Shown piece by piece: positions 10,284-10,750 of a stretch of 17,902 bases of DNA. Location of the stretch: the IMG/VR virus record IMGVR_UViG_2778261135_000007, one strand, 5' to 3'. The notes below the pieces were generated by a model that saw nothing but the letters and a program-made list of their open reading frames with translations, made no database searches and was not told the origin of the DNA. Source of the DNA: a virus (taxonomy: Duplodnaviria; Heunggongvirae; Uroviricota; Caudoviricetes). Position 1 is the first letter of the stretch. Every line of letters begins with the position of its first letter. A program made the translations under genes and the position numbers.

Positions 10284-10437
10284 TTTTATATTGGCGAGGT
10301 GACGTGAGTTAAGTAGAATTGCTGCGGGTGCTTGAGGCTATCTGCCTCGGGCATGAATACCAACGGCAGATAGAGAAAAGCCCCAGTTAACATTACGCGT
10401 CCTGCAAGACGCTTAACATTAATCTGAGGCCAATTTC

Positions 10438-10650
10438 ATGCTAGACACATGTAGGTTAGCCTCTTACGTGCCGAAAGGCAAGGAGAAGCAGGCTATGAAG
10501 CAGCAAAAGGCGATGTTAATCGCCCTGATCGTCATCTGTTTAACCGTCATAGTGACGGCACTGGTAACGAGGAAAGACCTCTGCGAGGTACGAATCCGAA
10601 CCGGCCAGACGGAGGTCGCTGTCTTCACAGCTTACGAACCTGAAGAGTAA
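10438..10650 (+). CDS. mok: Mok (modulator of killing), overlapping reading frame of the hok locus
   Basis: 70-aa ORF in frame with and containing hok. GAGG Shine-Dalgarno 8 nt upstream. Typical mok/hok translational-coupling arrangement. Confidence 0.5.
   Translation: MLDTCRLASYVPKGKEKQAMKQQKAMLIALIVICLTVIVTALVTRKDLCEVRIRTGQTEVAVFTAYEPEE
10495..10650 (+). CDS. hokD: Hok-family type I toxin (51 aa), HokD/RelF-like
   Basis: Translation MKQQKAMLIALIVICLTVIVTALVTRKDLCEVRIRTGQTEVAVFTAYEPEE has the Hok family signature. GC-rich hairpin with GAAA loop immediately 3' of the stop (10658-10679). Paralog name follows Qin synteny (hok-rem-ydfU-quuQ). Confidence 0.85.
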   Translation: MKQQKAMLIALIVICLTVIVTALVTRKDLCEVRIRTGQTEVAVFTAYEPEE

Positions 10651-10718
10651 GAGATCCGGCGAGGGAGAAATCCCTCGCCACCTCTGATGTGGCAGGCATC
10701 CTCAACGCACCCGCACTT

Positions 10719-10750
10719 AACCCGCTTCGGCGGGTTTTTGTTTTTATTTT
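10719..10750 (+). terminator. Rho-independent terminator downstream of hok
   Basis: AACCCGC-ttcg-GCGGGTT stem-loop followed by TTTTTGTTTTTATTTT. Confidence 0.6.

What the first reader, a model, noticed from the sequence alone, without database searches (positions are those of the whole stretch)
10300..10750. Intact mok/hok type I toxin locus with structured 5' leader and 3' hairpin; sok antisense not delineated
Hok (51 aa) lies inside a mok frame with its own Shine-Dalgarno. The leader contains stable inverted repeats (CTATCTGCC ... GGCAGATAG at about 10337-10372; GCGTC ... GACGC at about 10397-10412). A 9-bp GC-rich hairpin with a GAAA loop follows the stop, and a terminator follows that. 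This looks like a self-contained hok module, not the relBE-linked hokD of K-12. I could not confidently place the sok promoter and terminator on the minus strand.
Basis: partly seen in the sequence, partly recalled or inferred. Interest (0 to 1): 0.5.

Follow-up and report, generated by a model that had tools for sequence, protein, structure and literature searches.

The report
Intact prophage hok/sok toxin-antitoxin module
This is a complete, ordinary copy of the well-known hok/sok RNA-controlled killer-toxin module in a Qin-like prophage: it is the untruncated form of E. coli K-12's hokD, and its antisense sok gene can now be placed by homology.

Summary

- **Toxin:** Hok (10495-10650) is a Pfam HOK_GEF protein, 100% identical to K-12 HokD.
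- **mok:** it starts at 10438, in frame with hok.
- **K-12 breakpoint:** the window has no relBE. K-12 homology begins only at 10481, so this is the untruncated form of hokD.
it lies on the minus strand. Its promoter is TTGCCT(10481-10476)-17 nt-TAACCT(10458-10453), and the RNA runs from about 10446 to about 10376 (71 nt). Promoter and start region (10447-10494) are identical to sokW of phage 933W/Sp5, whose -10 box was shown by mutation to be needed for antitoxin action.
- **RNA folding:** unconstrained folds give the three textbook hok mRNA states: a nascent metastable hairpin, a full-length form with tac-fbi and mok SD-ucb paired, and a truncated form with tac-ucb and mok SD-dcb paired. Sixty-five distinct Enterobacterales loci support these helices, with compensatory changes.
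- **Frequency:** the full cassette occurs in about 3,000 of 5,426 complete E. coli genomes, annotated hokD, and in phage records as mokW, hokD or gef.

Verdict: already known, low interest.

Side observation: the 5' tail of Sok is hypervariable among prophage loci that encode the identical toxin.

The parts
10291..10319 (+). hok promoter: -35 TTGGCG (10291-10296), 17-nt spacer, -10 TAGAAT (10314-10319)
   Evidence: Consensus scan, 9 of 12 matches. The -10 box is shared with 933W hokW, while the sequence upstream of about 10306 is not. Function is inferred.
10326..10745 (+). Full-length hok mRNA. The +1 is at about G10326 (+/-1); the 3' end lies in the T-run after the terminator.
   Evidence: The +1 lies 7 nt after the -10 box and aligns with the R1 hok +1. 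MFE is -173.3 kcal/mol, z = -8.2. The ends are inferred, not measured.
10326..10337 (+). tac (translational activator element), GGGUGCUUGAGG
   Evidence: Pairs with fbi in the full-length fold and with ucb in the truncated fold. Nucleotide diversity is zero among 68 prophage loci.
10344..10354 (+). Partner of tac in the nascent-transcript metastable hairpin (10328-10338 pairs with 10344-10354)
   Evidence: Folds of the first 30-50 nt give -18.8 kcal/mol, z = -5.06.
10338..10373 (+). Upper stem of the tac stem-loop: arms CUAUCUGCC (10338-10346) and GGCAGAUAG (10365-10373).
   Evidence: The helix is 96% paired across 65 loci, and 4 of its 9 pairs change on both sides.
10378..10384 (+). ucb (upstream complementary box, anti-SD), AAGCCCC. 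On the minus strand it forms the base of the Sok terminator stem, next to the U-tail.
   Evidence: Pairs with the mok SD in the full-length fold and with tac in the truncated fold. It is invariant among the prophage loci.
10386..10423 (+). It is the complement of the Sok terminator hairpin.
   Evidence: The 16-nt extension relative to the Rfam consensus is shared with the functional hokW locus.
10426..10429 (+). mok Shine-Dalgarno, GAGG
   Evidence: Lies 8 nt before ATG 10438. It aligns with the R1 mok SD GAGG (G105, A106 in PMC9841398; alignment).
10438..10650 (+). mok reading frame, 70 codons, in the same frame as hok
   Evidence: An in-frame ATG 19 codons upstream of the hok ATG is present in 58 of 68 distinct prophage loci.
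10426..10463 (+). Sok-target hairpin of the truncated mRNA. The mok SD (10426-10430) pairs with dcb (10459-10463). The loop (10441-10447) carries CUAG, which fits a YUNR motif.
   Evidence: Folds (-12.4 kcal/mol, z = -2.8). Stem pairs covary across loci. The U-turn role of YUNR comes from my own knowledge of the hok literature.
10483..10486 (+). hok Shine-Dalgarno, GGAG
   Evidence: Read from the sequence. CAAGGAG is nearly invariant in 65 loci.
10495..10650 (+). hok: 51-aa Hok/Gef toxin, identical to K-12 HokD
   Evidence: Pfam PF01848, E = 1.2e-23. Identity to HokD shown.
10658..10679 (+). 9-bp GC hairpin with a GAAA loop. [quoted passage not shown]
   Evidence: It aligns with the R1 hairpin GGCGGGC-GCAG-GCCCGCC. 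Across loci the helix is 98% paired with compensatory changes. Its role in 3' processing is inferred from R1 (PMC9841398).
10700..10712 (+). fbi (fold-back inhibitory element), CCUCAACGCACCC, with C10706 bulged
   Evidence: Pairs with 10326-10337 in the unconstrained MFE. Detected as inverted repeats I3 and I7. Position 4 covaries as C:G in 31 loci and U:A in 27.
10719..10745 (+). Intrinsic terminator: stem 10719-10736 followed by a T-run
   Evidence: It is not shared with 933W hokW, where homology ends at about 10716.
10453..10481 (-). sok promoter: -35 TTGCCT (10481-10476), 17-nt spacer, -10 TAACCT (10458-10453)
   Evidence: The segment is 100% identical to 933W/Sp5 sokW. Primers YO-421 and YO-422 of PMC8621323 mutate exactly this -10 box, and that mutation removed protection from HokW. 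It aligns with R1 TTGCGC-17-TATCCT. The simple consensus scan missed it.
10376..10446 (-). Sok antisense RNA, about 71 nt: a 15-nt single-stranded 5' tail, a long terminator hairpin, then UUUU
   Evidence: Coordinates transferred from the sokW misc_RNA feature of AF125520, using the offset taken from the mok ATG. The fold is -28.7 kcal/mol, z = -5.1. The sokW northern probe YO-592 maps to 10416-10445. The ends are predicted, not measured.

Best explanation
**What it is.** Window 10291-10750 is an intact hok/mok/sok type I toxin-antitoxin cassette of the hokD/hokW group. It sits between the replication genes and the Q antiterminator of a Qin-like lambdoid prophage.

**Expected mechanism, taken from plasmid R1 hok/sok and Sp5 hokW-sokW:**
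1. The hok promoter makes a stable mRNA of about 420 nt.
2. During transcription, the 5' tac element is held in a metastable hairpin.
3. In the finished transcript, tac pairs with the 3' fbi element and the mok Shine-Dalgarno pairs with ucb. The mRNA can then be neither translated nor bound by Sok.
4. Slow 3' trimming, back to the GC hairpin at 10658-10679, removes fbi.
5. tac then pairs with ucb. The mok start region refolds into a hairpin whose loop is recognised by the 15-nt 5' tail of Sok.
6. Sok is a short, presumably unstable antisense RNA made from the opposite strand (10446 to 10376). It blocks mok translation, and hence the coupled hok translation, and marks the duplex for RNase III.
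7. If Sok synthesis stops, through loss of the element or prophage induction, the remaining mRNA is translated and the 51-aa Hok peptide damages the inner membrane.

**Shown here:** the sequence elements, their identity or homology to characterised loci, the predicted alternative folds, and covariation across loci.

**Inferred:** the transcripts and their ends, 3' processing, translational coupling, toxicity in this host, and the biological role.
For: **Toxin**
- Hok matches Pfam HOK_GEF at 1.2e-23 and is 100% identical to K-12 HokD.
- HokD was toxic when expressed, according to bioRxiv 10.1101/2025.08.07.668861.

**Leader and folds**
- Rfam RF01794 scores 115 bits over 10326-10500.
- Unconstrained MFE folds give all three states: tac-fbi plus mok SD-ucb for 10326-10745, tac-ucb plus mok SD-dcb for 10326-10681, and the metastable hairpin for the first 30-50 nt.
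- The full-length transcript has z = -8.2.

**Comparison across loci**
- 65 distinct loci from Escherichia, Shigella, Kluyvera, Photorhabdus, Erwinia, Pantoea, Enterobacter, Buttiauxella and others keep these helices: 89.5% of cells are paired, against 42-52% when the partners are slid.
- tac position 4 covaries with fbi: C:G in 31 loci and U:A in 27.
- A complementary fbi lies 45-60 nt after the stop codon in nearly all of them.

**sok**
- Promoter and start region are identical to sokW.
- sokW is annotated in 933W and VT2-Sakai.
- Its -10 box and its antitoxin activity were tested experimentally (PMC8621323).

**R1 mutational data**
- The positions equivalent to R1 G4, C5 and T6 (tac) and to the mok SD, where substitutions abolish toxicity (PMC9841398), are conserved here.

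**Distribution**
- The cassette occurs at full length in 3,002 of 5,426 E. coli genomes.
- It is full length in 77 of 80 IMG/VR prophage loci that encode the same Hok.
Against: - No expression data exist for this copy. The ends of Sok and of the hok mRNA are transferred from an annotation that was itself a prediction.
- The sok -10 box, TAACCT, matches the consensus at only 3 of 6 positions, and the promoter scan did not report it.
- Chromosomal hokA, hokB and hokC loci were reported unable to mediate post-segregational killing (summarised). An intact sequence therefore does not prove activity.
- The Rfam 'sok' hit lies on the sense strand, so it supports the leader but not the antisense gene itself.
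- NCBIfam Hok models score below their cut-offs: 48.5 bits against 73.
- The covariation alignment was anchored on the window's own predicted structure, which favours that structure.
Confidence: 0.9

Rival explanations
1. The cassette is intact in sequence but physiologically silent. Like the chromosomal hokA, hokB and hokC loci, it may not kill on loss or on transcription arrest. It would then persist only because it travels with the prophage.
For: [quoted passage not shown]
- Decayed copies exist in other genomes. L011 has a mutated tac and L056 has a frameshifted hok. Selection on such loci is therefore not absolute.
Against: - The closest characterised relative, hokW-sokW, is active. Its sok promoter is identical and its leader 94.6% identical to the window (PMC8621323).
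- tac, ucb and the promoter region show zero or near-zero diversity among 68 distinct prophage loci, while the neighbouring loops vary. That pattern indicates purifying selection on the regulatory RNA.
Confidence: 0.2
2. It is a degenerate remnant, comparable to K-12 hokD: a toxin gene that has lost its antisense control and is read only as part of a longer operon.
For: - The toxin is identical to K-12 HokD.
- The downstream 1.8 kb is 99.1% identical to K-12 Qin.
Against: - No relBE is present, and K-12 homology starts only at 10481.
- Upstream of that point the window has the full leader, mok and the sok promoter, all of which K-12 lacks.
- No frameshift or stop codon interrupts hok or mok.
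Confidence: 0.03
3. The mechanism is the same, but the main role is not addiction. The module may help lysis and phage release on induction, as proposed for hokW-sokW, or it may exclude superinfecting phages, as reported for R1 hok/sok against T4.
For: - In Sp5, sokW RNA disappears and HokW appears after mitomycin C in a RecA-dependent way, and deleting the locus halves phage yield (PMC8621323).
- R1 hok/sok reduced T4 plating (cited).
- In the window, hok lies on the same strand as the replication genes and Q. Early rightward transcription after induction would therefore run through it in the sense direction, against sok. This last point is inference.
Against: - Nothing in the sequence separates these roles.
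- hokW sits at a different place in its phage, near the right end of the 933W record. The position-based argument therefore does not transfer from hokW.
Confidence: 0.3

Closest known systems
hokW-mokW-sokW of Stx2 phages 933W and Sp5 (VT2-Sakai); annotated in AF125520 and AP000422, characterised in PMC8621323
   Same: - Same architecture and the same leader, including the extended GCGUC/GACGC hairpin.
- Leader 94.6% identical, hok CDS 94.2% identical.
- sok promoter, dcb and hok SD (10447-10494) 100% identical; fbi identical.
- mok is in frame with hok in both.
   Different: - The Hok C-terminus differs...FTAYEPEE here against ...FVDYESEK.
- 5 of the 15 nucleotides in the Sok 5' tail differ.
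- Homology stops at about 10306 upstream and about 10716 downstream, so the -35 region and the terminator are not shared.
- The position in the phage genome differs.
hokD (relF) of the E. coli K-12 Qin prophage
   Same: - Identical 51-aa toxin.
- 99.1% DNA identity from the hok SD (10481) through the 3' UTR, fbi, rem and ydfU.
- Same prophage neighbourhood.
   Different: - K-12 has relB-relE immediately upstream.
- K-12 lacks tac, ucb, mok and nearly all of the sok promoter; only the last base of the -35 box lies within the shared DNA.
- The window has no relBE.
hok/sok (parB) of plasmid R1
   Same: - The same ordered set of elements: promoter, tac, metastable partner, ucb, mok SD, Sok target, dcb, hok SD, hok, 3' stem-loop and fbi.
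- The same alternative pairings.
- The sok promoter is at the homologous place: TTGCGC-17-TATCCT in R1 against TTGCCT-17-TAACCT here.
   Different: - Hok is only 43% identical.
- R1 mok is in a different frame from hok (read from the sequence).
- The window leader lacks the R1 insertion in the first hairpin and has a 16-nt extension in the second.
- R1 is plasmid-borne; this copy is prophage-borne.
Chromosomal hokC/mokC/sokC (gef) type loci
   Same: - Hok is about 82% identical (loci L025-L032).
- The leader elements are the same, and tac/fbi have the same GGGUGC/GCACCC form.
   Different: - They belong to a distinct DNA lineage, about 75% identical to the window.
- They lack the extended second hairpin.
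- They sit at a core-chromosome position, not in a prophage. This last point rests on my own knowledge and was not tested here.

Membership tests
[quoted passage not shown] | A Hok/Gef toxin of about 50 aa | tested here: met
   PF01848 at E = 1.2e-23 and 82.9 bits, against a cut-off of 22. The protein is identical to HokD.
[quoted passage not shown] | A mok reading frame with its own SD that starts upstream of hok and overlaps it | tested here: met
   ATG 10438 with GAGG at 10426-10429; 70 codons running through hok. Translational coupling itself cannot be tested here.
[quoted passage not shown] | A cis-encoded antisense sok gene with its promoter inside the hok leader, complementary to the mok start region | tested here: met
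   The promoter TTGCCT-17-TAACCT at 10481-10453(-) is identical to sokW, which has been validated. The predicted 71-nt RNA folds into a tail plus a terminator hairpin, z = -5.1. The transcript has not been observed.
[quoted passage not shown] | Long-range tac/fbi pairing between the 5' and 3' ends of the full-length mRNA | tested here: met
   10326-10337 pairs with 10700-10712 in the unconstrained MFE and appears as repeats I3 and I7. It is conserved with a compensatory change across 65 loci.
[quoted passage not shown] | Alternative pairings: mok SD with ucb (closed) against tac with ucb plus mok SD with dcb (open) | tested here: met
   Both appear as MFE structures, of the full-length and the 3'-truncated RNA respectively. 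The Rfam consensus structure equals the open form.
[quoted passage not shown] | A metastable 5' hairpin that sequesters tac in the nascent transcript | tested here: met
   10328-10338 pairs with 10344-10354, -18.8 kcal/mol, z = -5.06.
[quoted passage not shown] | Slow 3' processing back to a protective stem-loop, producing the translatable mRNA | not testable with these tools
   The stem-loop is present at 10658-10679 and aligns with the R1 hairpin. Processing itself needs RNA work.
[quoted passage not shown] | Toxicity of Hok and its neutralisation by Sok | not testable with these tools
   HokD of identical sequence is reported as toxic. hokW-sokW was shown to act as a toxin-antitoxin pair. 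Neither test was done on this copy.
K-12-type hokD (relBEF operon arrangement) | relB-relE immediately upstream of hok, with the leader and the sok gene absent | tested here: not met
   No significant RelB or RelE match anywhere in the window; the only tblastn hit is a 5-aa RelE match at E = 2.2. K-12 homology begins at 10481.
hokW-sokW subgroup (Stx phages) | The same Sok recognition sequence and the same Hok protein as hokW | tested here: not met
   5 of 15 Sok-tail positions differ, and the Hok C-terminus differs (92% aa identity). The window is therefore a sister allele, not hokW itself.

The most novel reading that the evidence does not exclude
Prophage hokD-type cassettes may be diversifying specifically in the Sok 5' tail and the hok target loop, while the toxin and every other regulatory element stay fixed. 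This would create mutually orthogonal antitoxin specificities, so that co-resident prophages cannot protect the cell against each other's toxin.

**Support found here:**
- Among 68 distinct IMG/VR loci that encode the identical Hok, nucleotide diversity peaks at 10436-10445 (0.347). It is 0.000 at tac and at ucb.
- At least 8 alleles are seen.
- The hokD-type loci compared within one E. coli genome and within one Shigella genome (three each) differ from one another at 3-8 of the first 15 Sok nucleotides.
- The most recent Hok survey states that it did not analyse the Sok, mok or mRNA elements.

**What is not excluded:** relaxed constraint on a loop, or recombination between alleles, could give the same pattern.
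Probability: 0.35. Interest if true: 0.35.

Novelty: already known. Interest (0 to 1): 0.1.

Why it matters
It matters little for discovery. The family has been a textbook model since the 1980s, and the prophage form has been annotated since the 933W genome and characterised experimentally in 2021.

The practical value lies in annotation:
- RefSeq labels only the 51-aa hokD CDS at this locus.
- mok, sok and the cis-acting RNA elements are left unmarked there, and phage annotation pipelines place spurious ORFs over them.
- The coordinates given here can be transferred to thousands of E. coli prophages.

The window also shows what the ancestral, untruncated form of K-12 hokD looks like, and it places the K-12 breakpoint at the inner edge of the sok -35 box.

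Tried and rejected
- **Promoter scan.** The consensus scan found the hok promoter but not the sok promoter, because TAACCT falls below its threshold. I placed sok by homology instead.
- **Rfam 'sok'.** I expected RF01794 to mark the antisense gene. It hits the sense strand, and its consensus structure is the open hok leader, so it cannot delineate sok.
- **R1 reference copy.** The first R1-type reference locus fetched (L003) is cut by IS150 inside the leader, so I replaced it with L006.
- **hokW reference copy.** The O157 Z887 'hokD' locus (L004) is not hokW: the sokW probe YO-592 does not match it. I found the real hokW by searching with the probe sequence.
- **relBE.** I searched for RelB and RelE in the window and found nothing significant.
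- **NCBIfam.** The Hok models score below their cut-offs. I did not count this against membership, because the Pfam and identity evidence is decisive.
- **Exact source genome.** I looked for it and did not find it. No complete E. coli genome covers 80% or more of the 4-kb neighbourhood. The best cassette matches are 98.0% (strain S19-651) and 97.8% (phage HannyBb).
- **ORFs overlapping the locus.** These are minus-strand 10286-10393 and 10464-10628, and plus-strand 10687-10805. I judged them spurious because they lie over RNA elements and have no family support.
- **ORF finder.** My first automatic finder picked in-frame upstream starts. I corrected this.

Full report
**Observation.**

- A 51-codon ORF (10495-10650) lies inside a 70-codon frame that starts at ATG 10438. 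Its product matches Pfam HOK_GEF at E = 1.2e-23.
- The arms CTATCTGCC (10338-10346) and GGCAGATAG (10365-10373) are present, as are GCGTC (10397-10401) and GACGC (10408-10412).
- The 9-bp GC hairpin with a GAAA loop lies at 10658-10679 (-19.7 kcal/mol, z = -5.97). The terminator stem lies at 10719-10736 and is followed by a T-run.

This is not chance.
- The 420-nt transcript folds 8.2 standard deviations below its dinucleotide shuffles.
- Rfam RF01794 scores 115 bits over 10326-10500.

**Context.**

The window is a Qin-like lambdoid prophage. Annotation of the closest E. coli relative, PHROG hits and Rfam together give this gene order:
- integrase, excisionase, exonuclease, dicB and DicF;
- repressor, cro, ydaT and replication genes;
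- the hok cassette;
- rem, ydfU, Q, cspB-like, the lysis genes and cspI-like.

The cassette itself is very common.
- megablast finds it at 80% or more coverage in 3,002 of 5,426 complete E. coli genomes, where only a 'hokD' CDS is annotated.
- It also appears in phage records, labelled MokW, HokD or gef.

**Relation to K-12 hokD.**

- The toxin is identical to K-12 HokD.
- K-12 DNA matches the window at 99.1% from 10481 for at least 1,820 bp downstream. Upstream of 10481, K-12 has relB-relE instead.
- The window has no relBE.
- The K-12 breakpoint therefore lies at the inner edge of the sok -35 box. K-12 lost tac, ucb, mok and sok; the window keeps them.

**Placing sok.**

1. Phage 933W (AF125520) and VT2-Sakai (AP000422) annotate sokW as a 71-nt misc_RNA that overlaps the mokW start.
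2. There are no indels between window and 933W in this stretch. Using the mok ATG as anchor, the feature maps to window 10446-10376 on the minus strand.
3. Upstream of it on that strand lie TTGCCT (10481-10476), a 17-nt spacer and TAACCT (10458-10453). This is homologous to TTGCGC-17-TATCCT in the R1-type locus.
4. The whole segment 10447-10494 is 100% identical to 933W.
5. Takada et al. (PMC8621323) mutated exactly this -10 box with primers YO-421 and YO-422 and lost protection against HokW.
   - They restored protection with a clone equivalent to window 10344-10498.
   - Their sokW northern probe corresponds to 10416-10445.
6. The predicted Sok folds into a 15-nt single-stranded 5' tail, a long hairpin and UUUU (-28.7 kcal/mol, z = -5.1).
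7. It is a 16-nt extension relative to the Rfam consensus, and it is shared with the functional hokW locus.

**The hok mRNA switch.**

- The promoter TTGGCG-17-TAGAAT (10291-10319) puts the +1 at about G10326. This aligns with the R1 hok +1.

Unconstrained folding gives three states.

| RNA folded | Main pairings |
|---|---|
| First 30-50 nt | tac in a metastable hairpin (10328-10338 with 10344-10354) |
| Full length, 10326-10745 | tac (10326-10337) with fbi (10700-10712); mok SD (10426-10430) with ucb (10380-10384) |
| Cut after the 3' GC hairpin, 10326-10681 | tac with ucb; mok SD with dcb (10459-10463); loop 10441-10447 presents CUAG |

- These are the nascent, closed and open states described for R1 (PMC9841398; PMC1635323).
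- The positions equivalent to R1 G4, C5 and T6 and to the mok SD are conserved here. Single substitutions at those R1 positions abolish toxicity.

**Comparative support.**

- One scan of species-representative genomes returned 80 loci. A leader profile found the full leader in most of them.
- I aligned 65 distinct full-length mRNA regions.
- On that alignment the closed structure is 89.5% paired, against 42-52% when the partners are slid by 1-3 columns. The open structure is 82.5% paired, against 41-53%.
- tac position 4 covaries with fbi: C:G in 31 loci, U:A in 27 and U:G in 3. That position is unpaired in the open form, whose partner ucb does not vary.
- An fbi complementary to the locus's own 5' end lies 45-60 nt after the stop codon in nearly all loci.
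- Caveat: the structures were derived from the window sequence, which favours them in the slide control.

**Verdict on identity and novelty.**

- It is the untruncated counterpart of K-12 hokD and a sister allele of hokW-sokW.
- Every sequence-level defining feature that I could test is met.
- Transcripts, processing and toxicity were not testable here.

The kind is already known. It was annotated in 1999-2000 phage records, studied experimentally in 2021, and counted among thousands of prophage Hok genes in a recent survey.

**Biological role, left open by the sequence.**

The role could be prophage addiction, help with lysis on induction as proposed for hokW, or phage exclusion. Sequence alone cannot decide between these.

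**Side observations.**

- Sok tail variability.
  - I collected 80 IMG/VR prophage loci that encode the identical Hok. Of these, 77 have the full leader and 2 the K-12 truncation.
  - The 68 distinct sequences, counting the window itself, show zero diversity at tac and ucb and almost none at the sok promoter.
  - Diversity peaks at 0.347 at 10436-10445, which is the Sok 5' tail and target loop. At least 8 alleles are present.
  - The window differs from sokW at 5 of these 15 positions.
  - The hokD-type loci compared within single E. coli and Shigella genomes carry different alleles.
  - This fits selection for distinct antitoxin specificities, but a permissive loop or recombination is not excluded. 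The recent Hok survey did not examine these elements.
- A possible small gene upstream.
  - An unannotated 29-codon hydrophobic ORF (GTG 10194 to 10283) with a conserved SD lies just upstream of the hok promoter.
  - Its differences from three relatives are biased to third codon positions.
  - It has no family match, and its DNA is present in only 25 of 5,426 E. coli genomes.

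Noticed in passing
window 10432-10452 (Sok 5' tail / hok target loop); loci L089-L168, L010, L011, L013, L015, L022, L023: Among 68 distinct prophage loci that encode the identical Hok, this short stretch is by far the most variable part of the leader (pi 0.347, against 0.000 at tac and ucb). At least 8 alleles are seen, and loci compared within the same genome carry different alleles. This may reflect diversification of antitoxin specificity.
   Followed up: partly
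window 10183-10283 (+): An unannotated 29-codon hydrophobic ORF, VLVLKCALAIAAVMAIYCLVIVLMNHLSD, starts at GTG 10194 with SD GGGAGG at 10183-10188. The start codon and an SD are conserved in three relatives, while the upstream DNA is only about 55% identical. Differences fall mostly at third codon positions. There is no Pfam, NCBIfam or PHROG hit, and the DNA occurs in only 25 of 5,426 E. coli genomes. It may be a small membrane protein gene.
   Followed up: partly
window 9950-10102 (+): A 50-aa ORF has a hydrophobic N-terminal segment. Its first 26 residues are conserved in an ORF upstream of hokW in 933W and in two other genomes, after which the sequences diverge. It has no family hit.
   Followed up: partly
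window 10326-10500 (+): The Rfam family named 'sok' (RF01794) matches the sense strand. Its consensus structure is the open hok mRNA leader (tac/ucb stem, mok SD/dcb stem, ending at the hok AUG), not the antisense RNA. Automatic 'sok' annotations based on it will carry the wrong strand and the wrong extent.
   Followed up: yes
window 10633-10636 (+): The Tyr47 codon UAC followed by G forms the TadA editing motif UACG. TACGAA is almost invariant across 65 hok loci. K-12 hokD mRNA is reported to be edited Tyr to Cys at a low level of 6% (PMC12214031).
   Followed up: partly
window about 10306 and about 10716-10745: The cassette has mosaic boundaries. Many E. coli and phage matches start at about 10306, just before the -10 box of the hok promoter. 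They end either at about 10716 (933W) or at about 10745, the end of the terminator. The -35 region and the terminator are therefore exchangeable flanks.
   Followed up: partly
window 4775-4826 (-): DicF antisense sRNA, a full-length Rfam hit at 72.5 bits, as in the Qin dicB operon.
   Followed up: no
window 13795-14187 (+) and 16697-17082 (+): Two cspA-type thermoregulator leaders (158.8 and 108.7 bits) precede cspB-like and cspI-like genes of the prophage.
   Followed up: no
window 10759-10788 (+): A promoter-like site, TTGAAG-18-TAGAAT, lies between the hok terminator and the rem homologue at 10867-11118.
   Followed up: no
loci L018, L028, L034, L066, L067, L068: E. coli-type or R1-type hok loci, 96-100% identical to enterobacterial ones, sit on contigs in assemblies labelled Veillonella, Acinetobacter, Xanthomonas, Ferruginibacter, Streptomyces and Oscillibacter; all but the Veillonella contig (22.9 kb) are 5 kb or shorter. 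Contamination of those assemblies is the likely cause.
   Followed up: no
loci L011 (E. coli ECMA0423) and L056 (Shigella flexneri): These are decayed copies. L011 has a mutated tac (GACTGCATGTGG) with weak fbi pairing. L056 has a frameshifted hok.
   Followed up: no
locus L001 (phage HannyBb), 2855-3144 (-) and 3440-3556 (+): The phage record annotates 'hypothetical protein' CDSs on top of the hok promoter, leader and terminator. It has no sok feature. These calls are probably spurious.
   Followed up: no
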